This document shows positions 1-62,420 of a stretch of DNA of 64,000 bases, piece after piece. Numbering within the stretch: the first letter of the stretch is position 1; each line of letters opens with the position of its first letter. The position numbers were made by a program, and so were the translations under genes. The notes beneath the pieces are model-generated. The model was not told where the DNA came from, ran no database searches, and saw only the letters and a list, made by a program, of their open reading frames with translations. Origin of the DNA: an archaeon (GTDB taxonomy: Archaea > Nanobdellota > Nanobdellia > Pacearchaeales > GW2011-AR1). The DNA lies in the NCBI GenBank assembly GCA_030605415.1, contig JAUWIJ010000003.1, positions 4,441 to 68,440 on the forward strand, written 5' to 3'.

Positions 1-1074
1 TTGAATTTGTGAGGGTACCAGCGAAGCGTCCGACCACCGACCGCCCGACGAAGTGTAGACAGAATCTACACTGAGCGATTCCTCAGTCAAAGTTCCAGTC
101 TTATCCGTACAAATCACCGTCGCTCGACCCAAAGTCTCCGCCGCAGGCAGTCGCCGAATTAAAGTATTAACCTTATGCATCTGCTTAATCGCAACCGCCA
201 GACTAATCACAATAATCGCAGGAAGCGCAGAAGGAATAGCCGCAATAGCCAAACTAACAGAAACCAAAAACATCTCAAGCACCCCAATCCCAGAATAAAC
301 CCCAATCCCAAAAGCAAAAGCAACTATCACCAAAATCGCAATCGAGATATTTCTGGAAAAAATATTTATCTTCTTCTCGAGTGGCATAATCTCATCCTCG
401 GTTTTCTGAACTAATTCAGCCAATTTCCCAAATTCAGTTCTGTGTCCAGTTTCAACAACAACGGCCGTAGATTTTCCTCTGGCAATAGATGTCCCGGCAT
501 AAATCATATTTTTCCTGTCCGCCAAAACCACATCACTCTTCAAAGTTCCAGTCAACTTATCAACCGGAAAACTTTCTCCACTTAAAACAGCCTCGTTAAC
601 TTGTAAATTTTCCAAACTCAAAATTCGGCAGTCCGCCAAAACCTTATCGCCAACATTCAGAAAAATAATATCACCCGGAACCAACAACCCAGAATCAATT
701 TCCATCTGAACTCCGTCTCTCAAAACCATAGCTTTATATCTTAAACTTTTTCGCAACTTTTCAATAATTTCTTCAGCCTTGTATTCTTGCACAAACCCAA
801 TCCCAGCATTCAGAAAAACAATAGCTCCAATCACAACAGCGTCAATAAAATGTCCAATCATCGCCGATATAACTGCGGCAACAATCAAAATATAAATCAA
901 CAACGAATTAAACTGTTTCAGAAAAATCATCAACAAACTCTTGCCCTTATATTTGTGAATAACATTTTTCCCAAACTTTGCAAATCTCTTTTGTACCTCA
1001 CCCTTGGTTAGCCCATTTTCAGAACTGTCCAAATTTTTTAACACCTTCTCGCGAGATTGAATATGCCAATCCAT
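1..1074 (-). CDS. P-type cation-transporting ATPase, N-terminal ~358 aa (3' part runs off the window)
   Basis: Absent from the ORF track because there is no stop in the window. Reverse translation from ATG at 1074 gives MDWHIQSREKVLKNLDSSENGLTKGEVQKRFAKFGKNV. Revcomp of 61-120 reads TVICTDKTGTLTEE, the DKTGT phosphorylation motif. The + ORFs 175..414 and 787..1011 are antisense shadows. Confidence 0.85.
   Translation of the reverse strand, partial: MDWHIQSREKVLKNLDSSENGLTKGEVQKRFAKFGKNVIHKYKGKSLLMIFLKQFNSLLIYILIVAAVISAMIGHFIDAVVIGAIVFLNAGIGFVQEYKAEEIIEKLRKSLRYKAMVLRDGVQMEIDSGLLVPGDIIFLNVGDKVLADCRILSLENLQVNEAVLSGESFPVDKLTGTLKSDVVLADRKNMIYAGTSIARGKSTAVVVETGHRTEFGKLAELVQKTEDEIMPLEKKINIFSRNISIAILVIVAFAFGIGVYSGIGVLEMFLVSVSLAIAAIPSALPAIIVISLAVAIKQMHKVNTLIRRLPAAETLGRATVICTDKTGTLTEESLSVDSVYTSSGGRWSDASLVPSQIQ
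6..52 (+). repeat. GC-rich mosaic element inside the ATPase CDS (TTTGTGAGGGTACC + CCAGCGAAGCGTCCGACCACCGACC)
   Basis: The same two modules recur at 5067, 10762 and 61839, and at 32868, 48723 and 62375. The element lies just after the DKTGT motif in the protein. Confidence 0.75.
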
Positions 1075-4961: not shown

Positions 4962-5100
4962 CCCACAAATCCCAAATTCCTCGCCAGTCCCATCCCCCGT
5001 CCCCAGCTCTGAGTTCTAAGTTCTCATCCCTGAGTCGGCGTGCCCCAACCCATTTTCCCCTTGTATCTGTGAGGGTATCTCTACGTTCTCAATTCTGAAC
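4962..5100 (+). repeat. composite GC-rich mosaic element
   Basis: It reads CACAAATCCCAAAT, then CCCCGTCCCCAGCTCTGAGTTCTAAGTTCT, then GAGTCGGCGTGCCCCAACC...TTGTATCTGTGAGGGTATC. Confidence 0.8.
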
Positions 5101-10689: not shown

Positions 10690-10776
10690 CTACTACCAAC
10701 TACCAGAGAGGTAAAGCCTCTCGAACTACTTAGGGTCTGCCCCAACCTGTCTTTCTTTTGTATTTGTGAGGGTACC
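10690..10776 (+). repeat. GC-rich mosaic element between rrp4 and rrp41
   Basis: It contains CTACTACCAACTACC, the hairpin GAGAGG-TAAAG-CCTCTC, and GGGTCTGCCCCAACC...TTTGTATTTGTGAGGGTACC. Confidence 0.8.
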
Positions 10777-28316: not shown

Positions 28317-30581
28317 CTACTTCTTCCCAACCTTCTTCTTAACCACCTTCTTAACCACCTTCTTTTTTTCAGCATGATTCACAATTTTCCCATCAACAAT
28401 CTCAACCTCGCCACTCGCCAACTTTGCCTTAAACTCAGCTTTCTTTTTCTGCAACTCTTCATTCGTCGAACACTCAGAGTTAAAACAAAACTTCCACGGT
28501 GCTCTACCTTTTTGAAAACTAACAATTAGAGGAAACCCGCATTCCCCACACATTTCCAACTCCTCCCCCTCCGAACCCCGCTCCCCAGCTCCCACCCCCC
28601 GCGTCCTCGCAGGACGCATCATTCCTCTCGGTGGCAAAGAATAAGTCGTTTTACAATCAGGGTAAGCGTCGCACGAAACAAAATATCTCGAAAATCTTTT
28701 CCCATACATAACCCTCAATTTTCCCTTATGGCACACAGGACACTCAGACATAGTATTTGTTTCCTTCTCCTGTTCCCATACAATCGCATTCGCATCAGCC
28801 AAACTCTTTCCCATCGCATCCAGATTTCTAGTCATCCCCTTCGCAATTTTCGTTACCGATTTCTTCGCCTCATCCAAAATCTTTTTCTCTTTTTTCGCCA
28901 AATTTTTCTTTCCCTTCAACCCCTCGATTTTTTCCAACTCTTCAGTCATCTCTCTCGTCAACTCTTCATCCAAAATAATCGGCGCATACTTCCCGAGCGT
29001 TTCAACCATTTTCATTCCAAGCTCCGTAACTTCAATACTTTTTTCTCTAACATATCCACGAGAATACAAAGTCTCAATAATTGCCGCCCGAGTTGCCTTC
29101 GTTCCAAGTCCTCGCTTTTCTAATTCTTTAACCAACGAAGCAGCAGAATACCGACGAGGTGGCTTAGTTTCTTTTTCCTCCGTCCGAATTTCCAGAACAT
29201 CAACATTGCCATCTATCGTAGGCACATTTGACTCTTTCGTGGAATGCGAATAAACATTCATCCAACCTTTCTCTTTAATCTGCACGCCTCTCGCCTTAAA
29301 ATCTAAATTGTTAACAACAACTTTAATATTTTTATTTTCAACTTTCGCCGAATCGCAAAAACAAGAAATAAATCTTTTCACAATCAAATCATAAATTTTT
29401 TTATCCCTTTCAGCAATCTTTTTAGCCTCGCCTGTAGGATAAATCGCAGGATGCGCCGGGTCGGTCTTTTTTCCCTCGGTCGGTTTCGCATTAACGGCAT
29501 ACTTAACCTTCGATGTCCATTTTTTCAACCGTTTCAAAATTTTTCCATAACCAATAGATTTATCATACTTCTGACTTGAAGTTCTTGGATATGAAATAAG
29601 TCCAGAGAGATAAAGATTCTGTGCCGCCTTCATGGTCTGCGAAGGAGTCCACCCGCAATTTTTATAAGCCTCAATTTGCAAAGTCGTCAAATCAAAAGGC
29701 GCGGGCGGAGCAACAACATCTTCTTTAATTATAGTAGATGCAACTCCGCTTTTCCCCTGCAAATGCTTAAACTTCAACAACTCACCTTTATTAAAAATAT
29801 CTTTCGGATGCTTAACCTCGACTTTCTGATTCTTAATATCTTTCACTTGCAAAAATATCTGCCAATATGGTTCCGACTTAAAATCCATAATCTCTTTCTC
29901 TTTATCTGCAACAATTTTTAATGCAGGACCTTGCACCCGACCAATCGACAAAATCCTAAAAGTCCCAGTTGAAGACAGCGCTTTCATTAAACCTCTCGAC
30001 AAGTTAATTCCATAAAACCAATCAATATAATGTCGGGTTTCTCCCGCAATCGCCGCGCCCCAATTAAGCGTCGGCAACAAATTCTCAAACGATTCATCCA
30101 ACGCCTCTTTAGTCAACAAAGAAAACTTCATCCTGTTAACATCTTTCTGCTTACAAATAAAACGCGCGACATTCCACCCAATAACCTCGCCCTCAACATC
30201 AAAGTCCGTCGCTACAATAAACTCATCGGCTTCTTTTGCTAATTTTTTTAAGACGTTCAAATATTTCTTCGTAAAAGCCCCACCCTTTTTCTGATGTGCA
30301 GGTTGCCACTTAACCTCAAAATTAGGAAACGGTCCCCTCTTCGCAATCTGCTGAATCCCAAACAAATGCCCAACCGCGCACCCAACAATATATCTTTGCT
30401 TCCCCTTGTAAAATTCATAATACGAAACCTTATCTTTATTAGTAATTTTCTCGTCCGTCGCCCCACTTAACGCCGCCGCAATTTTCGCCGCCGCCGCCGG
30501 TTTCTCCGTAATAATTAGGGTAGTGTTTTTGCCCTGACTTTTTTGGGGTACATTATTATGTGTAGTTTTCTTTTTTGTCAT
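28317..30581 (-). CDS. topA: type IA DNA topoisomerase with C-terminal zinc ribbons
   Basis: Toprim motifs are LIITEKPAAA and DFDVEGE. The active-site Tyr context is ISYPRTSS. The Zn ribbons are CPVCHKG...CDAYPDC and CGECG. Confidence 0.9.
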   Translation of the reverse strand: MTKKKTTHNNVPQKSQGKNTTLIITEKPAAAAKIAAALSGATDEKITNKDKVSYYEFYKGKQRYIVGCAVGHLFGIQQIAKRGPFPNFEVKWQPAHQKKGGAFTKKYLNVLKKLAKEADEFIVATDFDVEGEVIGWNVARFICKQKDVNRMKFSLLTKEALDESFENLLPTLNWGAAIAGETRHYIDWFYGINLSRGLMKALSSTGTFRILSIGRVQGPALKIVADKEKEIMDFKSEPYWQIFLQVKDIKNQKVEVKHPKDIFNKGELLKFKHLQGKSGVASTIIKEDVVAPPAPFDLTTLQIEAYKNCGWTPSQTMKAAQNLYLSGLISYPRTSSQKYDKSIGYGKILKRLKKWTSKVKYAVNAKPTEGKKTDPAHPAIYPTGEAKKIAERDKKIYDLIVKRFISCFCDSAKVENKNIKVVVNNLDFKARGVQIKEKGWMNVYSHSTKESNVPTIDGNVDVLEIRTEEKETKPPRRYSAASLVKELEKRGLGTKATRAAIIETLYSRGYVREKSIEVTELGMKMVETLGKYAPIILDEELTREMTEELEKIEGLKGKKNLAKKEKKILDEAKKSVTKIAKGMTRNLDAMGKSLADANAIVWEQEKETNTMSECPVCHKGKLRVMYGKRFSRYFVSCDAYPDCKTTYSLPPRGMMRPARTRGVGAGERGSEGEELEMCGECGFPLIVSFQKGRAPWKFCFNSECSTNEELQKKKAEFKAKLASGEVEIVDGKIVNHAEKKKVVKKVVKKKVGKK
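28556..28617 (+). repeat. GC-rich element inside the topA zinc-ribbon region
   Basis: The sequence is ccaactcctccccctccgaaccccgctccccagctcccaccccccgcgtcctcgcaggacgc, including the palindrome GCGTCCT-CGC-AGGACGC. It encodes ARTRGVGAGERGSEGEELE. Confidence 0.7.
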
Positions 30582-31387
30582 TATATATTATCCAGAGGAG
30601 ACTTTATATTTTTAATTGATGCTTGAGAAATATGTGTATAAATTTGTGTCGTCTTAATATCGGAGTGTCCGAGAAGTTTTTGTATAATTCTCAAATCAGT
30701 TCCTTGTTCAAGCAAATGAGTCGCAAAAGAATGACGAAGCAAATGTGGATAAACTCTTTTTTTAATACTAGCTTTTTTTGCAGAGTTTTGAACTATTTTT
30801 TGGATGGTGTTTTTTGTGAGTTTTCCTCCACGATTAGACGGAAATAAATTTTTTTCATTAACTAATCCACAATATTTTTTTAATTCTTCAAATAAAGAAT
30901 CCGGAATTTTAACAAATCTGTCTTTTTTACCTTTGGCTAATTCAATATGAATCAAACTCTCTTCAAAATTCAAATTTTTCTTTTTTAAATTAACAATTTC
31001 ACTAACACGCAAACCACATCCATAAAGAAGCTTAATAATGAGTTTATGTTTTATATTTGAGGTGGACTTAATTAATTTTTTCATCTCCTTAGTTGTCAGA
31101 ATTTCCGGAAGAGGACTATTTTTCTTAGGATTAGGAATTTTGACTTTTTGTTTCAAAACATTTTCAAAAAAAAATTTTATTGCAAAAAGATCTTTTCTTA
31201 CACTAGATGGATTTTTCTTTTTCAAATTTAATTGAATATAATTTTTTAGAACATTTTCATTTAATCCTTTATCTTCAGAATAATCAATAAATTTACGAAC
31301 AGAAAGCAAATATCCTTTAACAGTTTGTCTAGAGAAGCTTCTAATCTCTAATTCTCTTTTTAATTTCTCAATTAAACCACCCATCAA
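30581..31387 (-). CDS. xerA: tyrosine recombinase XerA-like
   Basis: The motif is RHSFATHLLEQGTDLRIIQKLLGHSDIKTTQIYTH, with an N-terminal SAM-like domain. Its stop overlaps the topA ATG (TAATG). Confidence 0.85.
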   Translation of the reverse strand: MMGGLIEKLKRELEIRSFSRQTVKGYLLSVRKFIDYSEDKGLNENVLKNYIQLNLKKKNPSSVRKDLFAIKFFFENVLKQKVKIPNPKKNSPLPEILTTKEMKKLIKSTSNIKHKLIIKLLYGCGLRVSEIVNLKKKNLNFEESLIHIELAKGKKDRFVKIPDSLFEELKKYCGLVNEKNLFPSNRGGKLTKNTIQKIVQNSAKKASIKKRVYPHLLRHSFATHLLEQGTDLRIIQKLLGHSDIKTTQIYTHISQASIKNIKSPLDNI

Positions 31388-32730: not shown

Positions 32731-32903
32731 CGGAGCTTTCAACAAAGCTCCCGATGTTGAAACCCCTAACCCCTAACTCCCAACTGCAACGTCAAAGACG
32801 TTGCCCCACAAATCCCAAATACCCAATCCCAAATCCCTCGCCCCCTTCCTTCTCCCCCCGACTACCGACCAGCGAAGCATCCGAACCCCGACAACCGACC
32901 CCC
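32731..32903 (+). repeat. composite GC-rich mosaic element downstream of the phosphoesterase gene
   Basis: It contains the hairpins GGAGCTTT-CAAC-AAAGCTCC and GCAACGTC-AAA-GACGTTGC. It also contains CCCTAACCCCTAACTCCCAACT, CACAAATCCCAAATACCCAATCCCAAATCCC and CGACCAGCGAAGCATCCGAACCCCGAC. Confidence 0.85.
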
Positions 32904-36671: not shown

Positions 36672-37265
36672 TCACCCCAAATAATCCTTCAAAATCTTTT
36701 TCCCCAATTTCTTATTATAAATTTTTAAATATTTCATTAATTTTTTCTCATCAATTTTCTCCCGGAATTTCCCTAAGACATCCTCACTAATTTTTTGTTT
36801 AAATAAAAACATATCAATAAAAGTCTTTTCCAAATCTGAATACGGAAGGCAAAATCCTCCATCATCTAAATAATCAATCCCAAACATAAATTCTTTTTTT
36901 GTGCTTCTAACCAAAACATTTCCCCCAAGGACTTTCCTGATTCCCACCCTGACTTTTTTCGGAGTTATTACTATTGGGATTGTTTCCTGTTCCCATAAAC
37001 CATAAAAACTTAAAGCAGACTGCAAACCCAAATAGGCAGGAAAACAAAGAACTATCAAACTATTATCATTGTGTTTTGTATAATACCCTTTTGCGATTTT
37101 TTTTATCTCCCCGGATTTTAAAAGATTATGAACAACAAGTTTCGCATAATTACTCTTAGAATTTTTTCTTTCAAATCGGACAATTCTCTCTATAGATTTA
37201 AAATCTACGACAAGACTTTTCTCAAATAAATTTCTTATTCTCTCTAAATGTTTGGATTTTCCCAT
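36672..37265 (-). CDS. AbiEi-like antitoxin / transcriptional regulator (type IV TA)
   Basis: An N-terminal wHTH-like region (LVVHNLLKSGEIKKIAKGYYT) is followed by AYLGLQSALSFYGL, which is typical of AbiEi. It overlaps the NTase gene by 22 nt. Confidence 0.55.
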   Translation of the reverse strand: MGKSKHLERIRNLFEKSLVVDFKSIERIVRFERKNSKSNYAKLVVHNLLKSGEIKKIAKGYYTKHNDNSLIVLCFPAYLGLQSALSFYGLWEQETIPIVITPKKVRVGIRKVLGGNVLVRSTKKEFMFGIDYLDDGGFCLPYSDLEKTFIDMFLFKQKISEDVLGKFREKIDEKKLMKYLKIYNKKLGKKILKDYLG

Positions 37266-37897
37266 TTTCTTTTTATGTATTCTTTTAGTTCATTAAAATT
37301 AGGGACAACTCCCTCCAAAAGAAGAACCTTAAGATCTTCTACATCCTCCGGAATATCTTTCTCATCAATTACTTTTTTTATGTTTTTATCAATCAAAGAG
37401 ACATTGCCAACCAACCTCATCAAGAAAAAAACGTCGTAAATATCCCTAATTTTTTTTCTACTAAGATAGGTCTTAATTTTTTCATTTAATAATTGTTCAA
37501 CAGCTAAACCATAAATAGAAATAATAGTCCCATCCACTTTTTCATAATCCAAAAGAACCCCCTTAATATTTTGAAAGGTAGCTTCTAATTTCACAGAAAC
37601 CCGACCATACTTTAGCTCTGAATAAACACTCCTGTCGGAAATTTTCTTCTTCTTAATCTCAAAACCTTTATTTTCCAAATTCTTAAATAATTTCTCTATC
37701 AAACTTTTATTCTTCGGAAAATAAAAATCTAAATCTTCGGAAAATCTTTTCCCACCATAACATCTCCAAATACAGGTTCCGCCATGAAAAACCGTAGAAG
37801 GAATTACTTTAATGGTCTCCTCAATGAGTATATCCTGAGCAAAGGCTATATTTTTATGTAATTCTTTCCTTATTCTGGAAATTAATGGCAATTTCAT
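37244..37897 (-). CDS. AbiEii/DUF1814-family nucleotidyltransferase toxin
   Basis: FHGGTCIWRCYGGKRFSEDLDFY matches the GGT...R.SEDLDF motif of AbiEii. Confidence 0.75.
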   Translation of the reverse strand: MKLPLISRIRKELHKNIAFAQDILIEETIKVIPSTVFHGGTCIWRCYGGKRFSEDLDFYFPKNKSLIEKLFKNLENKGFEIKKKKISDRSVYSELKYGRVSVKLEATFQNIKGVLLDYEKVDGTIISIYGLAVEQLLNEKIKTYLSRKKIRDIYDVFFLMRLVGNVSLIDKNIKKVIDEKDIPEDVEDLKVLLLEGVVPNFNELKEYIKRKWENPNI

Positions 37898-39149: not shown

Positions 39150-40412
39150 ATGAATAAAAAACTTTTAACAATTGGAATAATAATTCTTATGGCTACTATA
39201 GTAGTTGCTACAATAGGATTATTTCTTTATCCATATTCCCCAGACCGGCCTCCAAGTACAGATGATACTGGTTCAACTCAACAAGGAATCCAACAAGTTG
39301 TAAATGCAAACAACCAATTTGCTTTTGATTTATATTCAGAATTAAATAAAGATTCAGATAGTAATATTTTTTATTCTCCTTATAGCATCTCTGCCGCTTT
39401 AGCAATGACTTATGAAGGCGCAAAAGGACAAACGGCAGACGAAATGAAATCTGTTTTTCATTTCCCAGAAAATAATATATTAAGACCAAATTTTGCAACA
39501 ATTTATAATAATATTAATGAGGGAAATAATGATTACGAATTAAAAACAGGAAATGCCTTGTGGGTTCAACAAGATTATCCTTTTCTTGAAAATTATACAA
39601 GCAGAGTTGAAAATTATTATGGAGGAAAAACAGCAAATTTAGATTTTATTAAAGAAACAGAAAAGTCCAGACAGACAATTAATAGTTTTATAGAAGAACA
39701 AACTAATAATAAAATTAAAGATTTAATTCCTCAGGGCGTTCTTAATGAGCTGACAAGATTAGTTCTTACAAATGCAATTTATTTTAAGGGAACATGGGAA
39801 TGGGAATTTGACAAATCTGATACTCGTGAACAGGATTTTAAAATAACAGAAAATAATATAGTTAAAGTTCCAATGATGTCCATGAAAAATGATAAAGCAA
39901 TGTTTAATTATGCCGACACTGAAGACTTACAAATCTTAGAATTATCATATAAGGGTGAAGATATTTCTATGTTAATCCTTTTACCAACAGAAAATCTTGA
40001 TAGTATAGAATCTTCTTTAACAACAGAAAAACTTAATGAATACAAAAATCAAATGAAAGAGACAAAATTAGATGCTATTTATTTACCTAAATTTGAATTT
40101 GATTCAAAATATACTTTAAATGAAAATTTGAGGGCTTTAGGAATGCCAACTGCTTTTTCTGACAGCAATGCTGATTTTTCTGGAATGACTGGAAATAGAG
40201 AATTATTTATTAGCGCAGTAATCCACCAGGCTTTTGTCAAAGTTGATGAAAAGGGAACAGAAGCAGCAGCCGCAACAGGAGTTGTAATGCAACTAAAAAG
40301 TGCTCCAATGCCAAAAAATATATTTAGAGCAGACCACCCATTTATATTCATTATACAAGAAAAAGAAACAGGTAATATTTTATTTTTGGGAAGAGTTATT
40401 GACCCTCGATAA
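39150..40412 (+). CDS. serpin (serine protease inhibitor) with an N-terminal membrane anchor
   Basis: The evidence is FYSPYSISAALAMTYEGAKGQT, the hinge DEKGTEAAAATGVVM, and FRADHPFIFIIQE. Confidence 0.9.
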   Translation: MNKKLLTIGIIILMATIVVATIGLFLYPYSPDRPPSTDDTGSTQQGIQQVVNANNQFAFDLYSELNKDSDSNIFYSPYSISAALAMTYEGAKGQTADEMKSVFHFPENNILRPNFATIYNNINEGNNDYELKTGNALWVQQDYPFLENYTSRVENYYGGKTANLDFIKETEKSRQTINSFIEEQTNNKIKDLIPQGVLNELTRLVLTNAIYFKGTWEWEFDKSDTREQDFKITENNIVKVPMMSMKNDKAMFNYADTEDLQILELSYKGEDISMLILLPTENLDSIESSLTTEKLNEYKNQMKETKLDAIYLPKFEFDSKYTLNENLRALGMPTAFSDSNADFSGMTGNRELFISAVIHQAFVKVDEKGTEAAAATGVVMQLKSAPMPKNIFRADHPFIFIIQEKETGNILFLGRVIDPR

Positions 40413-48364: not shown

Positions 48365-49315
48365 TCAATTAAATACAAACTCGCTTCTGCCAAAAATCAA
48401 CTCTTCGGTCGTTCTCCGATAAATTCCTACAAATTGCTTCTTACAAAAAACCGCAAACCTATCATCAACTTTAATTTCGCCAACATCACTAATTACACTA
48501 TCTCTAAACAAAGGTCTTCCGATGTGCAATCCCTTAATCGCTTTCTTTTCAATCTCAACAACTGGTAGAACTTGCTTAATCGCATCCTCGGCAGGAATCA
48601 ACATTTTCCGCAAATCACTATCATCTCCAGCCTTCCATTTCCCAACAGCAATCTCAAACTCATCCAGCCGAACAAGTCGTCCGACACTCCGACCATCTAT
48701 TCCCATCCCCTCCGACCATCCGACCAGCGAAGCGTCCGAACACCGACCATCCGCTTCGGAGAATATCCCCGCAGATATTCGACGAAGTTCGCCCATATGC
48801 GCCCCGCCAATCATCTCGCCTAAATCCGAACATAATTTTCTAATATAAGTTCCACCCTCAACTTTGCATTCAAACAAAAAATCCCTGCCGTCCCCTTTCT
48901 TCCGAACACCGAACACCGAACACCGAACACCGGCTTCGAGAAGTCTCCAAAAGAATACTTCTCGTATTCTTTCTTCTCGAAGAACTGCCGACCGATGCGG
49001 AGGAGTTTGTTTAATCTTCCCAATAAAATTTTTATCAATCAATTTCTGCAATTTAGCTATATCCTGTTTCTTATGTGTATGTAAAATTCCGACATAGCTT
49101 TTATCGTGCTTAATAAAATATCCGGCCAACTTACAAGCCCGCCCCAACGTAATCGGCAAAACCCCAGTCACCTTCGGGTCAAGCGTTCCCATATGCGATG
49201 TCTTTTTCAGCTTTAATTGTCTTCTGACAAATTCAGAAATCGAATACGACGTCGGTCCGGCTGGCTTGTCGATATTTATTAAACTGAAATTTAGGAGCCC
49301 TTTGATTGGTTTCAT
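48365..49315 (-). CDS. cbf5: tRNA/rRNA pseudouridine synthase Cbf5 (TruB + PUA) with two repeat-derived inserts
   Basis: The evidence is INIDKPAGPTSYS, HMGTLDPKVTGVLPI, GTYIRKLCSDLG and a C-terminal PUA domain. Confidence 0.9.
   Translation of the reverse strand: MKPIKGLLNFSLINIDKPAGPTSYSISEFVRRQLKLKKTSHMGTLDPKVTGVLPITLGRACKLAGYFIKHDKSYVGILHTHKKQDIAKLQKLIDKNFIGKIKQTPPHRSAVLREERIREVFFWRLLEAGVRCSVFGVRKKGDGRDFLFECKVEGGTYIRKLCSDLGEMIGGAHMGELRRISAGIFSEADGRCSDASLVGWSEGMGIDGRSVGRLVRLDEFEIAVGKWKAGDDSDLRKMLIPAEDAIKQVLPVVEIEKKAIKGLHIGRPLFRDSVISDVGEIKVDDRFAVFCKKQFVGIYRRTTEELIFGRSEFVFN
48676..48765 (+). repeat. CCGAC/CCAGCGAAGCGTCCGAAC element inside cbf5
   Basis: The sequence is gtcgtccgacactccgaccatc...tccgaccatccgaccagcgaagcgtccgaacaccgaccatccgcttcgg. 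It encodes GRCSDASLVGWSEGMGIDGRSVGR. Confidence 0.85.
48902..48932 (+). repeat. (CCGAACA)x4 perfect heptamer array inside cbf5
   Basis: Read directly. It encodes GVRCSVFGVR. Confidence 0.95.
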
Positions 49316-58192: not shown

Positions 58193-58516
58193 TTATCTAA
58201 TAAAATATTCAATCTTATTTCTTACTTTCTCATAAAACTTTTTTTCAAGTCGTGCCAATTTTTTAATAATAATTCTTTCATCAATTGCAAAAATCCTATG
58301 AGGCTTAACCCAACTTTTGAATGGTAATGTCCCGTCGCTAAATGAATTTTTATTAATTAAAACGCCATCCATTGGTCTATTGGAAGTAATCAGGCAACAA
58401 ATTTTATCTCCGCCTTTCAAGTTTTTATTCGAAATAATTATCGCGGGTCTTTTCTTAGCGCCAGTTAAATCCGAGTAAGGAAATGGAATTAAAATAATAT
58501 CTCTTTGTTTAAACAT
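58193..58516 (-). CDS. PemK/MazF-family toxin
   Basis: The evidence is RDIILIPFPYSDLTGAKKRPAIIIS and CCLITSN. Confidence 0.8.
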   Translation of the reverse strand: MFKQRDIILIPFPYSDLTGAKKRPAIIISNKNLKGGDKICCLITSNRPMDGVLINKNSFSDGTLPFKSWVKPHRIFAIDERIIIKKLARLEKKFYEKVRNKIEYFIR

Positions 58517-58739
58517 TATTCCACCTTTCGTCGGTCTCGTTGTCCCAATCTTTTTTCAAAACTTCTTCCGACGCCAACATAGTCATAATGCCCTCGCTGT
58601 TTTTATCATTCTCAATTTGATTAAGTTCTGCAATTCTTTGCCGAATAACCTTTCTAATAAACTCGCTCCATTTAATTTCAGAATATTTTTTCATTAAATT
58701 ATAGGTTTCAGTCTCAATCGATAACGTGACATTTGTCAT
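58509..58739 (-). CDS. antitoxin (RHH-like) for the MazF-type toxin
   Basis: 76 aa. It overlaps the toxin start by 8 nt. The N-terminal VTLSIETETYNLMKK has a strand-helix pattern. Confidence 0.55.
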   Translation of the reverse strand: MTNVTLSIETETYNLMKKYSEIKWSEFIRKVIRQRIAELNQIENDKNSEGIMTMLASEEVLKKDWDNETDERWNNV

Positions 58740-59805: not shown

Positions 59806-60237
59806 CTAAATACTCTTAATTTTTCTCTGAAATTTTATTTTTTCTCCCTGATGATCAAAAATAATAATAAATTTATCGAAAAATCCATTCCTTCCCAAAA
59901 TCATCGGAGCTTTGGTTTCTTGCATTATTACTTCCACAGGAACATCTCTAAATTTATAATTTTCATGAGAATTTTGAATTTTAATGCTCATTTTAGTTTT
60001 TAATGTTTTTACTTGCCCGCCGATTCCATTTGCGATAGTTTCTTTTCCACTCAAATCCAAACCAATCAATTCCGCTAAATCTCTCGGGATAACAGAAACA
60101 TCCGCCCCAGAATCTACCAGAGCCATAGTCTGAATCCAGCCAGGACCATTTCCCTTAATTTCTATAGGAATATGTGGCAATTTCGCCTCAACTCCATCGG
60201 CTCTTTTCTGCAATTTATACTTAAAAATAATCGCCAT
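59806..60237 (-). CDS. retropepsin-like aspartic protease
   Basis: ALVDSGADVSVIP is the D-S/T-G-A active-site loop, and there is a later ILGRNGFF. Confidence 0.75.
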   Translation of the reverse strand: MAIIFKYKLQKRADGVEAKLPHIPIEIKGNGPGWIQTMALVDSGADVSVIPRDLAELIGLDLSGKETIANGIGGQVKTLKTKMSIKIQNSHENYKFRDVPVEVIMQETKAPMILGRNGFFDKFIIIFDHQGEKIKFQRKIKSI

Positions 60238-60238
60238 C

Positions 60239-60439
60239 TTAAAAAATCATTGTTTGTTCTTCAGGAACTCTAGCAATCATAATCTTCTTTTTAGGATATT
60301 TCTCTTGAGCCTCTTCAAATGTTTTTTTTGCGTTATCCCCGAACGAAACAATATTTTCCTCACAAATAGCTATCCACTTGCCCTTAAAATTTTCTAAATT
60401 AGAACTCATAAAAACATTATAATTTGATTCTTTAGTCAT
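60239..60439 (-). CDS. DUF5678-like small protein
   Basis: 66 aa with FKGKWIAICEENIVSFGDNAKKTFEEAQEKYP. Only 1 nt separates it from the protease gene. Confidence 0.55.
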   Translation of the reverse strand: MTKESNYNVFMSSNLENFKGKWIAICEENIVSFGDNAKKTFEEAQEKYPKKKIMIARVPEEQTMIF

Positions 60440-60485: not shown

Positions 60486-61052
60486 CTAGTTGCCTCTTCT
60501 TCTGTTTGCTCTCAACGACGGTCTAACTTTTGGAGCTTTAACCGTACTGTGTCTCAATCCTCGAGCCTTTCTTCCGGCGGAACTAATTCCCCGCAAAGCT
60601 CTTTTCTTCGGAGCTTTAACAAAATCACCCAACTGCTTATCGTTCTTAATTTCAGGAGCCGAACGGTCAACCAAAATCACCTCGTAAAAATAATGCATTC
60701 CATCTTTTCCAACCTGATAAGAATTCAAAACTTCCATATTACTAAATTTCCTTGCAACCTTTTGTTCCGCAATCTCTTTATAATTCATCCTCAGATTTTT
60801 TCTAATATGCAATCTCTTCGTCCGCCTCGCTTTATTAGGACGTGTTCTTTTATGCCCGCCTCGTTTAATCTTAACCCTGACAACAGTCACACCCTTCTTT
60901 GCCTTATATCCCAAAGCCCGAGCCCTGTCCAACCTCAACGGTTTTTCAACCCGAGTAATCGCACCGCACTTCCGCCACTCAATCATTCTCGCTCTAAGCA
61001 ACTTCACGTCCGGCTTCTTCCACGCCTCTCTCAAATATTTTACAATTCCCAT
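60486..61052 (-). CDS. rpl15e: 50S ribosomal protein L15e
   Basis: The evidence is YLREAWKKP, RARMIEWRK and RLDRARALGYKAKKGVTVVRVKIKRGG. Confidence 0.9.
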   Translation of the reverse strand: MGIVKYLREAWKKPDVKLLRARMIEWRKCGAITRVEKPLRLDRARALGYKAKKGVTVVRVKIKRGGHKRTRPNKARRTKRLHIRKNLRMNYKEIAEQKVARKFSNMEVLNSYQVGKDGMHYFYEVILVDRSAPEIKNDKQLGDFVKAPKKRALRGISSAGRKARGLRHSTVKAPKVRPSLRANRRRGN

Positions 61053-61523: not shown

Positions 61524-61654
61524 AACTTTTCTAAAAATCCAAACTATTTAAACTTTTCCATCTGTTACCATTTTCTAATTACTTCAATTTTCTCCCACTA
61601 ATAATGTTGTGAATAATGATAATTAAATCAAAAAATCCTTCAACACAATTTTAA

Positions 61655-61788
61655 ATCAGATGCCTCCAAAGTATCGGTATTATGTTTAGCCCTGTCCATT
61701 TTCAGGACCCTGAACCTCAATAGGTGAGCTGTTACGCTTTCTTTAAATGATAGCTGCTTCTAAACTTACATCCCCAGTGTCTCAGGTT
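61655..61788 (-). rRNA. isolated 23S rRNA-like fragment (GTPase-associated centre H42-H44 and following, about E. coli 1040-1165)
   Basis: The minus strand reads GGGAUGUAAGUUUAGAAGCAGCUAUCAUUUAAAGAAAGCGUAACAGCUCACC...GGGCUAAACAUAAUACCGAUACUUUGGAGG. From memory, the E. coli sequence is GGAUGUUGGCUUAGAAGCAGCCAUCAUUUAAAGAAAGCGUAAUAGCUCAC...GGGGCUAAACCAUGCACCGAAGCUGCGG. There is no flanking rRNA sequence. Confidence 0.7.
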
Positions 61789-61811
61789 CAAATCAATGAG
61801 CCCGCCGTGAT

Positions 61812-61851
61812 GAGTCTGCCCCAACCAATTTTTTTATATTTGTGAGGGTAT
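61812..61851 (+). repeat. GTCTGCCCCAACC...TTTGTGAGGGTA module
   Basis: The sequence is gagtctgccccaaccaatttttttatatttgtgagggtat. The same ~45-nt module occurs at 5032-5079 and 10733-10776. Confidence 0.85.
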
Positions 61852-61965
61852 TTACTCAAAAAATACATCTCAAAATTATAAATAAAAAATCAGAACGCAT
61901 AATTTTTCAAAGCGTTTTCCTCGCACAGGACTATCCTGTCTTCAAATCAATGAGCCCGCTGTGAT
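61851..61965 (+). repeat. 115-nt unit, copy 1 (tRNA-Ile 3' flank plus 15 nt of the tRNA)
   Basis: tttactcaaaaaatacatctc...cacaggactatcctgtcttcaaatcaatgagcccgctgtgat is almost identical to 62083-62199. Confidence 0.9.
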
Positions 61966-62048
61966 GGGTCTGCCCCACCCAATCTTCTTTTATATTTGGT
62001 AGGGTACAGCGTGCCCCAACCTAATTTAAAAATATATTTGTGAGGGTA
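61966..62048 (+). repeat. two tandem GTCTGCCCCA(A/C)CC...TTTG(G/T)(T/G)AGGGTA modules
   Basis: They lie at 61966-62007 and 62008-62048. Confidence 0.85.
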
Positions 62049-62082
62049 TTGAACACTGTTCAAATCAATGAGCCCGCTGTGA

Positions 62083-62199
62083 TTTACTCAAAAAATGCAT
62101 CTCAAAATTATAAATAAAAAATCAGAACGCATAATTTTTCAAAGCGTTTTCCTCGCACAGGACTGTCCTGTCTTCAAATCCAAATGAGCCCGCTGTGAT
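62083..62199 (+). repeat. 115-nt unit, copy 2, running into the intact tRNA-Ile
   Basis: It differs from copy 1 at two substitutions and one 2-nt indel. Confidence 0.9.
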
Positions 62200-62258
62200 T
62201 TGAACACAGGACCTCTGCCTTATCAGAGCAGCGCGCTACCTGGCTGCGCCACGGGCTC
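62185..62258 (-). tRNA. tRNA-Ile (anticodon GAU), 74 nt, no encoded CCA
   Basis: Folded by hand. The acceptor is GAGCCCG/CGGGCTC and the D stem is GCGC/GCGC. The anticodon stem is CTGCT/GGCAG with loop CTGATAA. The T arm is CTGTG-TTCAAAT-CACAG and the discriminator is A. Confidence 0.9.
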
Positions 62259-62292
62259 ATATAAATATTAACAGAAAATTCAATTTATAAAA

Positions 62293-62420
62293 CTAACCCC
62301 CTACTCTTAGTTGATAGTCTTTAGTTTGTAGTCAGTAGTCTCCCGCTTCCCCCGCCCCTAACTCCTAACCCCGACCAGCGAAGCGTCCGAACTCCGACCA
62401 CCGACCTCCTCGCCCCTATC
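62293..62420 (+). repeat. composite GC-rich mosaic element between tRNA-Ile and the next gene
   Basis: It contains TAGTTGATAGTC..TAGTTTGTAGTCAGTAGTC, CCCGCTTCCCCCGCCCCTAACTCCTAACC and CCGACCAGCGAAGCGTCCGAACTCCGACCACCGACC. Confidence 0.85.

What the first reader, a model, noticed from the sequence alone, without database searches (positions are those of the whole stretch)
61785..62258. tRNA-Ile followed by three partial copies of its 3' end interleaved with small elements
The 15-17 nt tgagcccgctgtgat(tt) is the 3' acceptor strand plus the T-stem strand of the tRNA. It recurs at 61797, 61951 and 62068 downstream of the intact gene. Its flank is a 115-nt unit duplicated at 61851-61965 and 62083-62199. 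Between the copies lie one, then two GTCTGCCCCAACC...TTTGTGAGGGTA modules. Serial integration into a tRNA 3' end with target duplication is classic for archaeal integrative elements. Here the inserted DNA is only tens of nucleotides. The mosaic modules may therefore be the mobile unit themselves, or the scars of excised elements.
Basis: partly seen in the sequence, partly recalled or inferred. Interest (0 to 1): 0.7.

Follow-up and report, generated by a model that had tools for sequence, protein, structure and literature searches.

The report
Hairpin elements stacked behind tRNA-Ile
Behind the isoleucine tRNA gene of this tiny (DPANN) archaeon lies a real stack of about 100-base hairpin-shaped inserts, each closed by a copy of the tRNA's last 15 bases; relatives show the same thing at several tRNA genes, pointing to an undescribed family of small elements that settle at tRNA gene ends.

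Summary
tRNA-Ile(GAT) lies on the minus strand at 62185-62259. Its last 15 nt recur at 62069-62083, 61951-61965 and 61797-61811 (4 matches, 0.07 expected by chance).

Between the copies lie two 98%-identical units ("A") and three hairpin modules ("P").

In 80 related DPANN loci, 20 of 86 tRNAs carry a copy of their own last 12 nt downstream, and none upstream. The copies track each host's tRNA sequence.

The A core is a conserved rod hairpin of about 80 nt:
- 90% of cells are paired, and 16 of 18 pairs show compensatory changes.
- It has two tandem G·A motifs.
- All 14 strong matches in about 0.9 Mb of related DNA lie beside or inside tRNA genes (Ile and Gly); weaker matches follow further Ile, Gly and Phe genes.
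- Nearly all copies run in the tRNA's orientation.

Empty sites exist, and a 96%-related genome lacks the tRNA-proximal unit.

P is not tRNA-specific: it occurs three more times in the window.

Best reading: small non-autonomous hairpin elements inserted one after another at the T-loop/3' end of tRNA genes. Each insertion duplicates the tRNA end, and local duplication adds further copies. No recombinase was found apart from the housekeeping XerA. I judge this a new variant of tRNA-targeted integration.

The parts
62185..62259 (-). Intact tRNA-Ile(GAT). T-arm CTGTG/TTCAAAT/CACAG, acceptor 3' strand CGGGCTC, discriminator A at 62185.
   Evidence: ARAGORN; Rfam tRNA 66.4 bits; 100% identical to the tRNA of relative L003.
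62267..62298 (-). Conserved block upstream of the tRNA with a TATA-like TTTATAAA about 29 nt before the tRNA 5' end; probable tRNA promoter (inferred).
   Evidence: Conserved at 84-97% in L003, L004, L006, L007, L034 and others; sequence.
62084..62180 (-). A unit 1. It comprises an inverted T-arm copy (S2, 62165-62180, GATTTGAAGACAGGAC), a direct T-stem copy (S3, 62156-62163, GTCCTGTG), a rod hairpin (62086-62156) and an AA tail.
   Evidence: Repeat D1; nhmmer E=6e-24; model R2 71 bits; the minimum-energy fold equals the family consensus.
62069..62083 (-). Partial tRNA copy 1 (nt 59-73, exact).
61966..62068 (-). P-type unit. It comprises an inverted T-loop (62058-62066), the palindrome TTGAACAGTGTTCAA (62049-62063, whose right arm is a direct T-arm piece), P1 (62012-62047), CGCTGT, and P2 (61971-62005) with a GACCC tail.
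   Evidence: The homologous unit lies directly after the tRNA in L003.
61951..61965 (-). Partial tRNA copy 2 (exact).
61851..61950 (-). A unit 2. S2 at 61933-61948, S3 at 61924-61931, rod at 61854-61924. It is 98% identical to A unit 1.
   Evidence: 64 bits; fold.
61812..61850 (-). P3 hairpin module (core 61817-61849 plus GACTC tail), inserted between A unit 2 and copy 3.
   Evidence: model R1 58.4 bits.
61797..61811 (-). Partial tRNA copy 3 (ATCACGGCGGGCTCA, one mismatch); the most distal copy.
61661..61796 (-). An inverted T-loop piece (TTGATTTGAA) runs into a fragment of archaeal 23S rRNA. Rfam matches model positions 1157-1270, the helix 42-44 / GTPase-associated-centre region. Rfam limits are 61685-61795; similarity by eye continues to about 61661.
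   Evidence: 78.6 and 72.5 bits against a gathering score of 50. No counterpart in 80 related loci. The 3' junction is confirmed in two other assemblies.
61622..61641 (-). Degenerate tail of an older A unit (GAAGGATTTTTTGATTTAAT, 80% to the A 3' arm).
   Evidence: Repeat family D4; reading.
10738..10773 (-). P module unlinked to any tRNA, 29 nt after the stop codon of an exosome Rrp4-like gene.
   Evidence: 55.7 bits; context.
5041..5076 (-). P module unlinked to any tRNA, 30 nt after the stop codon of the ribosomal protein S2-like gene.
   Evidence: 50.4 bits; context.

Best explanation
The region is an accretion array. It was built by repeated, orientation-specific insertion of very small non-autonomous hairpin elements (the A family: about 100 nt per unit, about 80-nt rod core) at the T-loop/3' end of the tRNA-Ile gene.

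Each insertion leaves an intact tRNA and pushes a copy of tRNA nt 57/59-73 downstream. This is the attL/attR, or target-duplication, outcome. Successive events, plus local duplication of whole units (A1 and A2 are 98% alike), produce tRNA - unit - 15-mer - unit - 15-mer and so on.

The element carries its own look-alike of the T-arm: an inverted piece (S2), a direct piece (S3), and then the rod sitting where the T-loop would be. I take this to be its half of the recombination site. The tRNA T-arm palindrome would be the docking site for a recombinase supplied in trans.

The P modules are a separate, genome-wide REP-like hairpin repeat that also landed here. The 23S rRNA piece is a captured fragment joined at a TTTGAAC microhomology.

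Shown: the anatomy, the family, its conserved fold, its strict tRNA linkage, filled and empty sites, and co-variation of the copies with the host tRNA.

Inferred: mobility, the order of events, the type of recombination (reciprocal att-type with a roughly 115-nt circle slightly favoured over staggered-cut target duplication), and the enzyme.
For: 1. The copies are far beyond chance.

2. The pattern is directional and general. Of 86 tRNAs in 80 related loci plus the window, 20 have a copy of their own last 12 nt (at most 1 mismatch) within 450 nt downstream. None has one upstream and one has an antisense copy. An inverted T-loop 9-mer lies within 45 nt downstream of 15 of 81 tRNAs, and of none upstream or in a far control window.

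3. Copies match each host's own tRNA: CACAG/CGGGCTC in the window, CTCAG in L007 and L028, CCCAG/CGAGCTC in L076 and L014, CCTGG/CATCCTC in L024.

4. Filled and empty sites both exist. L015, L020, L021 and L023 have the tRNA directly followed by the L15e promoter. L007 has one unit. L003 (96% L15e identity) lacks A1, although the unit that follows it is homologous to the window's second unit.

5. A is a discrete family. nhmmer and model R2 give 14 strong matches at 55-89 bits, all beside or inside tRNA genes in about 0.9 Mb. They include tRNA-Gly in L012 and a disrupted tRNA-Gly T-loop in L017. Weaker matches lie after tRNA-Gly in L052 and tRNA-Phe in L080. Each is followed by that tRNA's own end.

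6. The fold is conserved: 90% of cells paired against 29-51% in slid controls, 16 of 18 pairs with changes on both sides, and 0 of 500 shuffles reaching the observed values. The single-sequence fold gives the same rod.

7. Core phylogeny does not follow locus. L017 Gly and Ile copies are 81% alike, whereas the adjacent L076 units are only 58% alike. That argues for movement between tRNA loci and for independent arrivals at one locus.

8. Both orientations occur (L016 and L017b are antisense) but with a strong bias, as expected for insertion of DNA.

9. L014 has a 137-nt direct repeat, running from T54 through the A unit to a second 15-mer. It brackets an 800-nt cargo gene.

10. There is precedent for a 15-bp duplication next to the T-loop-coding segment of a tRNA gene (PMC5137440).
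Against: - No dedicated recombinase, transposase or Cas1 was found in the window or next to arrays in relatives. Thirty ORFs were scanned with Pfam, and only an XerA equivalog turned up.
- No copy of A was found on viral contigs or away from tRNAs, so no autonomous partner or free form is known.
- The invariant tandem G·A motifs and the excess of G·U over A·C cells (33 against 10) point to a fold on one strand. That fits an RNA function at least as well as a DNA site.
- The co-varying inverted T-arm piece (S2) is not explained by a simple target duplication.
- The duplication ends exactly at the discriminator base, which a blind staggered cut would not predict.
- Insert sequences in more distant relatives are diverse.
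Confidence: 0.55

Rival explanations
1. The units are functional parts of the tRNA primary transcript, either a co-transcribed small RNA or a cis-acting trailer. The rod would be a structured RNA. The inverted T-arm piece, the direct T-stem piece and the copy of the tRNA end would pair with, or mimic, parts of the tRNA. That could steer folding or processing, or release the rod by tRNA-processing enzymes.
For: - The fold is conserved by compensatory changes, with two invariant tandem G·A motifs.
- G·U cells outnumber A·C cells 33 to 10 on the tRNA-sense strand.
- 18 or more of about 20 copies are co-oriented with the tRNA.
- No promoter of their own and no clear terminator lie between the tRNA and the unit.
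- The flanks stay matched to the tRNA even where adjacent cores are only 58% alike.
Against: - Many close relatives with the same tRNA lack any unit: L021, L022, L025, L052.
- Copy number ranges from 0 to at least 4.
- Antisense copies exist in L016 and L017b.
- The window's A units contain two T6 runs, which should terminate archaeal transcription inside the rod (established knowledge of oligo-T termination).
- The copy of the tRNA end is identical to the tRNA, not complementary, which is what duplication gives.
- No Rfam family matches, and the box spacing rules out a C/D guide.
Confidence: 0.2
2. Full-size viruses or plasmids integrated one after another into tRNA-Ile through a tyrosine integrase, and later decayed to stubs of about 100 nt between att copies.
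For: - The partial tRNA copies lie downstream only and start within the T-loop, as classic attR sites do.
- Accessory genes between tRNA-Ile and L15e vary among relatives.
- L004's unit is a hybrid: its left T-arm piece is of the host type and its right copy is of another type, as in an attR.
Against: - No integrase or other mobile-element gene was found in any of the loci inspected.
- Random decay would not preserve an 80-nt fold through compensatory changes.
- Decay would not leave near-identical stubs at Ile, Gly and Phe genes.
- The viral collection holds no matching att.
Confidence: 0.1
3. No mobile element is involved. The T-arm palindrome stalls replication, and template switching or slippage creates inverted and direct partial duplications together with filler DNA, which then expand as tandem repeats.
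For: - Inverted-plus-direct duplications of the T-arm (S2, S3) resemble template-switch products.
- The rRNA piece is joined at a microhomology.
- Tandem near-identical units occur in L028, L077 and the window.
Against: This does not explain a homologous structured core shared by different tRNA loci and by species whose L15e proteins have diverged to about 80% identity. It also does not explain the strong orientation bias.
Confidence: 0.07
4. An assembly artefact: mis-joined or collapsed repeats.
For: Short-read unitig assemblies of the same sample break at 61748 and 62376, on either side of the array. The junction between copy 3 and the rRNA piece has no independent confirmation.
Against: - The same architecture is present in more than 15 genomes assembled from metagenomes by different studies and assemblers.
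- The two A units differ at a few positions and have different neighbours.
- The junction of the rRNA piece with unique DNA is identical in two other assemblies.
Confidence: 0.03

Closest known systems
Integrative elements that target tRNA genes through tyrosine integrases (archaeal SSV- and pNOB8-type, bacterial genomic islands); tRNA fragments scattered by a recombinase-bearing element in Caldiarchaeum (PMC3293823)
   Same: Insertion at the 3' part of a tRNA gene. The gene stays intact, and a partial copy that starts in or near the T-loop is left downstream. Serial occupation of one tRNA is possible. Orientation is fixed.
   Different: Here the inserts are about 100 nt with no genes and no integrase. 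The same core family sits at Ile, Gly and Phe genes, each with the matching tRNA end. The insert is a conserved hairpin.
Casposons (Cas1-solo transposons), e.g. Aciduliprofundum boonei at tRNA-Pro (PMC5137440)
   Same: A 15-bp direct duplication at a tRNA gene end. The T-loop-coding palindrome just upstream acts as the recognition 'leader'. Repeated insertion at the same site is possible in principle.
   Different: The casposon duplication overlaps the tRNA by only 5 bp, whereas here it lies wholly inside the tRNA (nt 59-73). No Cas1 or PolB is seen. Units are about 100 nt instead of several kb. An inverted T-arm piece accompanies each unit.
Small palindromic mobile repeats without their own transposase (MITEs, REP/BIME, Rickettsia palindromic elements, mitochondrial GC clusters, PMC4478555)
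   Same: Size of 40-150 nt, hairpin shape, many copies, spread within genomes, and no coding capacity. The P module fits this kind well.
   Different: The A family is strictly tRNA-linked and orientation-biased, and it comes with a duplicated tRNA end. It also keeps invariant non-Watson-Crick G·A motifs, which simple terminal inverted repeats would not.
Integron attC sites and cassette arrays, also reported in archaea including Nanoarchaeota (PMC9668308)
   Same: Recombination sites conserved in single-strand fold rather than in sequence, with conserved mismatches. They form arrays of short units, and small accessory genes sit between sites (L014).
   Different: No IntI gene. The attC core motifs RYYYAAC/GTTRRRY are absent by inspection. 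The array is anchored on a tRNA T-arm rather than on attI.
Mobile or non-canonical archaeal tRNA introns and split or permuted tRNA genes (PMC4090602, PMC3218864)
   Same: Small elements that occupy T-loop positions of tRNA genes and spread among tRNA genes in one lineage. DPANN relatives here also carry long anticodon-loop introns.
   Different: The units lie outside the functional tRNA. No bulge-helix-bulge motif is visible at the junctions. Antisense copies exist.

Membership tests
tRNA-targeting integrase-borne integrative element | Direct repeat of a tRNA 3' segment bounding the insert, with the intact tRNA at one end | tested here: met
tRNA-targeting integrase-borne integrative element | An integrase gene inside or beside the insert | tested here: not met
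   No such ORF lies between the copies. Pfam on 30 ORFs finds only an XerA equivalog 31 kb away. None is present in the relatives' inserts either.
tRNA-targeting integrase-borne integrative element | One att sequence, meaning one tRNA species per element family | tested here: not met
   The same core family sits at tRNA-Ile and tRNA-Gly (strong matches), with a weak match at tRNA-Phe. Each is accompanied by that tRNA's own end.
Casposon | Target-site duplication of about 14-15 bp next to a tRNA T-loop segment | tested here: inconclusive
   A 15-17 nt duplication is seen at Ile genes, but 10-21 nt at other loci, and it lies inside the tRNA. Precedent.
Casposon | Cas1-type casposase and family B polymerase within terminal inverted repeats | tested here: not met
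   Units are about 100 nt and non-coding. No Cas1 hit appeared among the ORFs scanned. The rest of the genome could not be searched.
MITE / REP-like palindromic repeat | A short non-coding hairpin present in several dispersed copies in one genome | tested here: met
   P has five copies plus one partial copy in 64 kb, three of them unlinked to the tRNA. A has 2 copies in the window and 14 strong matches in relatives.
MITE / REP-like palindromic repeat | Dispersal to many kinds of site, with no strict target | tested here: not met
   For A, all strong matches lie at tRNA genes. P does meet this feature.
Integron attC site | A conserved single-strand fold with conserved mismatches and little sequence conservation | tested here: met
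Integron attC site | R''/R' core motifs RYYYAAC...GTTRRRY and an IntI integrase nearby | tested here: not met
   The motifs are absent by inspection. No IntI was found; XerA reaches only 203 bits on the integron-integrase model against a cut-off of 265.
Archaeal tRNA intron (bulge-helix-bulge) | Located inside a functional tRNA, with a bulge-helix-bulge motif at the exon-intron junctions | tested here: not met
   The tRNA is intact without the units. The 5' junction would lie inside a helix. Antisense copies exist. This rests on inspection only; no dedicated scanner for the motif was run.
C/D box guide sRNA | Boxes C (RUGAUGA) and D (CUGA) with unpaired guide regions of about 12 nt | tested here: not met
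   There is no Rfam match. Only YGAR motifs are present, 7-10 nt apart, and the intervening strands pair with each other.
Ribosomal RNA gene (for the 23S piece) | A full-length LSU rRNA | tested here: not met
   Only model positions 1157-1270 of 2987 are present.

The most novel reading that the evidence does not exclude
The A rods are folded single-strand recombination sites, analogous to integron attC sites, and the T-arm palindrome of tRNA genes is the docking site. Together they would form a miniature capture platform in DPANN archaea, without an integron integrase. It might be run by XerA or by an unknown recombinase. It would stack small DNA modules behind tRNA genes: the hairpin units themselves, stray fragments such as the 23S rRNA piece, and occasional accessory genes such as the nucleotidyltransferase-like cassette bracketed by A units in L014.
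Probability: 0.12. Interest if true: 0.85.

Novelty: new variant of a known kind. Interest (0 to 1): 0.62.

Why it matters
DPANN archaea have tiny genomes, few recognised mobile elements and no genetic tools. If the best reading holds, three things follow.

1. A family of roughly 100-nt elements that home to the T-arm of tRNA genes and keep the gene intact would be the smallest tRNA-targeting insertion system described. It would point to an unidentified recombinase that reads a tRNA T-arm together with a folded hairpin.

2. It would explain why the tRNA-Ile to L15e interval is a hot spot of gene-content variation in this clade.

3. It would give a concrete, testable model for how tRNA fragments, T-loop insertions and disrupted tRNA genes (such as the tRNA-Gly of L017) arise in archaea.

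If the rod is instead a functional RNA, it is an unknown RNA family linked to tRNA maturation. In either case the covariance model built here can be used to annotate the family.

Tried and rejected
1. Metagenome scan with GGGGCAGNCNNATCACAGC.

2. Viral-contig scans for the P-15-mer junction, the 25-mer and an A-core pattern. The first two found nothing. The third gave two chance hits in phage coding DNA with no model match.

3. Three local hairpins in the A core (my first model). A single rod hairpin fits better.

4. C/D box sRNA, K-turn, hammerhead core and attC core motifs. The YGAR motifs resemble parts of these, but spacing, the missing CUGA/RUGAUGA boxes, the missing 3-nt bulge and the missing GTTRRRY exclude membership. 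This was by inspection, and Rfam is negative.

5. tRNA intron or alternative 3' exon. There is no bulge-helix-bulge motif, and splicing would only regenerate the same tRNA.

6. A reverse-transcription stop at m1A58, suggested because the copies start at nt 59. Rejected because the copies are followed by genomic trailer rather than CCA, and because the Gly copies start at nt 64.

7. P modules as promoters. The AT-rich loops are not consistently TATA-like across relatives. As RNA hairpins they are thermodynamically weak, with z-scores from -1.6 to +1.8.

8. Integrase search. Only XerA was found. The long tRNA-L15e interval in L043 holds aminopeptidase-like and other ordinary ORFs (by eye from the translations, not scanned).

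9. Exact-protein look-up of the spurious 40-aa ORF inside A2, tried as a way to find more contigs across the array. It is not on record.

10. A global MAFFT alignment of the window against L003 mis-aligned non-homologous units. The BLAST result and direct reading were used instead.
Full report
**Organism and setting.** The window encodes archaeal ribosomal protein L15e (60486-61052, minus strand). Its closest relatives, at 96-60% protein identity, are metagenome-assembled genomes labelled Pacearchaeota, Woesearchaeota or Nanoarchaeota, that is, DPANN archaea. In most of these genomes tRNA-Ile(GAT) sits just upstream of L15e, usually on the same strand and sometimes inverted. Everything below is read on the minus strand of the window, the strand of the tRNA.

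**Observation.** The window holds one tRNA gene, tRNA-Ile(GAT), at 62185-62259. Its last 15 nt, ATCACAGCGGGCTCA, correspond to nt 59-73. They recur at 62083-62069, at 61965-61951 and, with one mismatch, at 61811-61797. That is four matches where shuffles give 0.07. The finding's coordinates, the duplicated unit of about 115 nt (98% over 99 nt; 96.6% over 118 nt) and the three small modules are all correct.

**Anatomy.** The order of parts is:
- the tRNA, then TTTG;
- A unit 1 (62180-62084);
- 15-mer copy 1;
- a P-type unit (62068-61966), which holds an inverted T-loop, a direct T-arm piece, module P1, CGCTGT and module P2;
- 15-mer copy 2;
- A unit 2 (61950-61851) followed directly by module P3;
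- 15-mer copy 3;
- TTGATTTGAA running into a 23S rRNA fragment (61795-61685 by Rfam, 78.6 bits, model positions 1157-1270);
- a degenerate A tail (61641-61622).

Each A unit begins with GATTTGAAGACAGGAC, the reverse complement of tRNA nt 45-61 with one mismatch (S2). Next comes GTCCTGTG, a direct copy of nt 46-53 (S3). Then comes a rod hairpin of about 70 nt, and finally AAAT plus the rest of the tRNA end. In effect each unit is a second T-arm/3' end whose T-loop is replaced by a hairpin, preceded by an inverted T-arm piece.

**The pattern in relatives.** I ran ARAGORN on 80 related loci plus the window, which gave 86 tRNAs. Twenty have a copy of their own last 12 nt (at most one mismatch) within 450 nt downstream. 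None has one upstream and one has an antisense copy. An inverted T-loop 9-mer lies within 45 nt downstream of 15 of 81 tRNAs, and of none in the upstream or distant control windows.

The copies follow the host tRNA's own sequence:
- CTCAG/CGGGCTC in L007;
- CTCAG/CGAGCTC, three times, in L028;
- CCCAG/CGAGCTC in L076 and L014;
- CCTGG/CATCCTC in L024.

Copy number ranges from 0 to at least 4 (L077). Empty sites, where the tRNA is followed at once by the L15e promoter, occur in L015, L020, L021 and L023, some with exactly the window's tRNA end. L003 has 96% L15e identity and an identical tRNA. It has only the P-type unit right after the tRNA, so the window's A1 plus one 15-mer (116 nt) is an extra insertion at the tRNA-proximal position.

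**The A family.**
- An nhmmer profile and a covariance model (R2) find 14 strong matches (55-89 bits) in about 0.9 Mb. Every one lies beside or inside a tRNA gene.
- Besides tRNA-Ile, the core follows tRNA-Gly(CCC) in L012. There it is flanked by an inverted and a direct T-loop copy and by GGTCCGCGCA, that tRNA's last 10 nt.
- In L017 it sits antisense inside the T-loop of a disrupted tRNA-Gly. In L016 it lies antisense after tRNA-Ile.
- Weaker matches follow tRNA-Gly in L052 and tRNA-Phe in L080, each with a degenerate copy of that tRNA's end.
- RNAalifold gives one irregular rod. On the model alignment 90% of cells are paired, against 29-51% when partners are slid, and 16 of 18 pairs show changes on both sides. 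No shuffle out of 500 reached the observed values for four of the five measures (17 of 500 did for pair types). This alignment is fitted to the model; the independent MAFFT alignment gave 16 of 18 as well.
- The window's A1 folds into the same rod on its own.
- Two symmetric tandem G·A motifs (5'-YGAR on both strands), about 12 layers apart, are invariant.
- G·U cells outnumber A·C cells 33 to 10, so the fold belongs to the tRNA-sense strand, as RNA or as single-stranded DNA.
- Rfam has no match.
- Core similarity does not follow locus. The Gly and Ile copies of L017 are 81% alike, while the two adjacent Ile units of L076 are 58% alike although their tRNA-derived flanks are nearly identical.
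- In L014 a 137-nt direct repeat (T54 to the tRNA end, an A unit, and a second 15-mer) brackets 800 nt holding a nucleotidyltransferase-like ORF.

**The P modules.** These are TACCCTCAC - AT-rich loop - GGTTGGGGCA(GACCC).
- Model R1 finds them only in the closest relatives (L003, L004, L006, L009, L026), and five times in the window. Two window copies lie about 30 nt after the stop codons of unrelated genes (10738-10773 and 5041-5076), and a partial copy lies at 1-22.
- One stem position co-varies (A-T versus C-G).
- As RNA hairpins they are weak.
- P is therefore a genome-wide REP-like repeat, not a tRNA-specific element.

**The rRNA fragment.**
- It covers the helix 42-44 region, fits the archaeal model well, and is absent from all 80 related loci.
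- Its 5' junction lies in TTTGAAC, which is both the inverted T-loop piece and the 5' strand of the rRNA helix. The fragment also contains GGTCCTG and GTTCA, like the tRNA T-arm.
- I read it as a captured piece joined at microhomology, probably inside an older A unit.

**Assembly check.** Two Logan contigs from one sequencing run (SRR12623522) stop at 62376 and start at 61748. An ENA contig starts at 61675. All agree with the window, with at most one mismatch, wherever they overlap it. The repeats therefore break short-read assemblies. The junction of the rRNA piece with unique DNA is independently confirmed, while the interior of the array is not. The recurrence of the architecture in more than 15 independent genomes makes an artefact unlikely.

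**Mechanism.** The evidence fits insertion of small DNA units at the T-loop/3' end of tRNA genes, with the tRNA restored and its old end displaced downstream. The points in favour are the downstream-only pattern, orientation bias with rare inversions, filled and empty sites, arrival of unlike cores at one locus, the same core at different tRNAs, and a core inside a broken tRNA-Gly.

Two sub-models remain.
- (a) Reciprocal recombination between the tRNA T-arm and the element's T-arm look-alike on a circle of about 115 nt. This explains why the copies must match the host tRNA, because the element supplies the working 3' end. It also explains the hybrid unit of L004.
- (b) Staggered cuts with gap repair, as in casposons, which duplicate 15 bp next to the T-loop segment of tRNA-Pro.

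I slightly favour (a).

No enzyme was found. The only tyrosine recombinase is an XerA equivalog beside topoisomerase I, and 30 ORFs scanned gave no transposase or Cas1. The conserved G·A motifs and the strand-specific fold keep an RNA-level function alive as the main rival. The two T6 runs inside the window's rods, the many relatives without units and the antisense copies count against it.

**Novelty.** Full-text searches found no description of such tRNA-linked hairpin units in DPANN or other archaea. The nearest known systems are tRNA-targeting integrative elements, casposons, palindromic mini-repeats and attC sites. Each fails at least one defining feature (see the membership table). I class this as a new variant of tRNA-targeted integration, of moderate to high interest.

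Noticed in passing
window 61661-61795 (-): An isolated fragment of about 111-135 nt of archaeal 23S rRNA (helix 42-44, the L11/stalk-binding region) lies between the tRNA array and a 71-aa ORF. None of 80 related loci has it. It shares GGTCCTG and GTTCA with the tRNA T-arm.
   Followed up: partly
window 62371-62409, 32865-32903, 48720-48749, 17-45 (all read on the minus strand): A third dispersed repeat, GGTCGG(T)GGTCGGA(GT)TCGGACGCTTCGCTGGTCGG, sits in G-rich tracts. At 62371-62409 and 32865-32903 it starts within a few bases of a gene's stop codon; the copy at 48720-48749 lies inside a long ORF. At the window start it abuts the beginning of a P module.
   Followed up: partly
window 10738-10773, 5041-5076, 1-22 (-): P hairpin modules lie about 30 nt after the stop codons of unrelated genes (Rrp4-like, ribosomal protein S2-like), on the coding strand. 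This is a REP-like distribution. They could be 3'-end or terminator-related signals.
   Followed up: partly
window 28317-31384 (-): An XerA equivalog (238 bits, cut-off 220) lies immediately downstream of archaeal topoisomerase I. It is the only tyrosine recombinase in the window.
   Followed up: yes
window 58193-58739, 36672-37897, 59806-60439 (-): Toxin-antitoxin-like pairs lie near the locus: a PemK/MazF toxin with a small upstream partner, and an AbiEii nucleotidyltransferase toxin with a partner. A DUF5678 protein paired with a retropepsin-like aspartic protease lies just downstream of L15e.
   Followed up: partly
L016 2486-2613, L013, L077, L069, L058, L072, L052, L030: Many relatives carry long introns (about 25-60 nt) in the anticodon loop of tRNA-Ile(GAT) or tRNA-Gly(CCC). 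Without its intron option ARAGORN missed or mis-called several of them, for example none in L016 and Leu in L058; with it, L030's tRNA-Gly was still called Ser.
   Followed up: no
L017 2500-2760: A tRNA-Gly(CCC) gene is broken in its T-loop by an antisense A core. It is followed by a degenerate and then a perfect copy of its 3' end, with another small hairpin insert between them. It is either a pseudogene or a very unusual gene structure.
   Followed up: partly
L005, L008, L010, L017, L019, L024, L028, L036, L042, L049, L050, L054: The tRNA-Ile gene is inverted relative to L15e in about a dozen relatives, while the neighbourhood is otherwise kept. This suggests recurrent local inversions at this tRNA.
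   Followed up: no
L028 1-320; L077 downstream of 3333: Contig L028 ends inside at least three 99-100% identical 117-nt A units. L077 has two different 71-nt units alternating twice, each ending with a 21-nt copy of the tRNA (T-loop to end). The arrays may be longer than assembled.
   Followed up: no
window 39150-40412 (+): A full-length serpin (Pfam E=3e-124) is encoded in this small archaeal genome.
   Followed up: no
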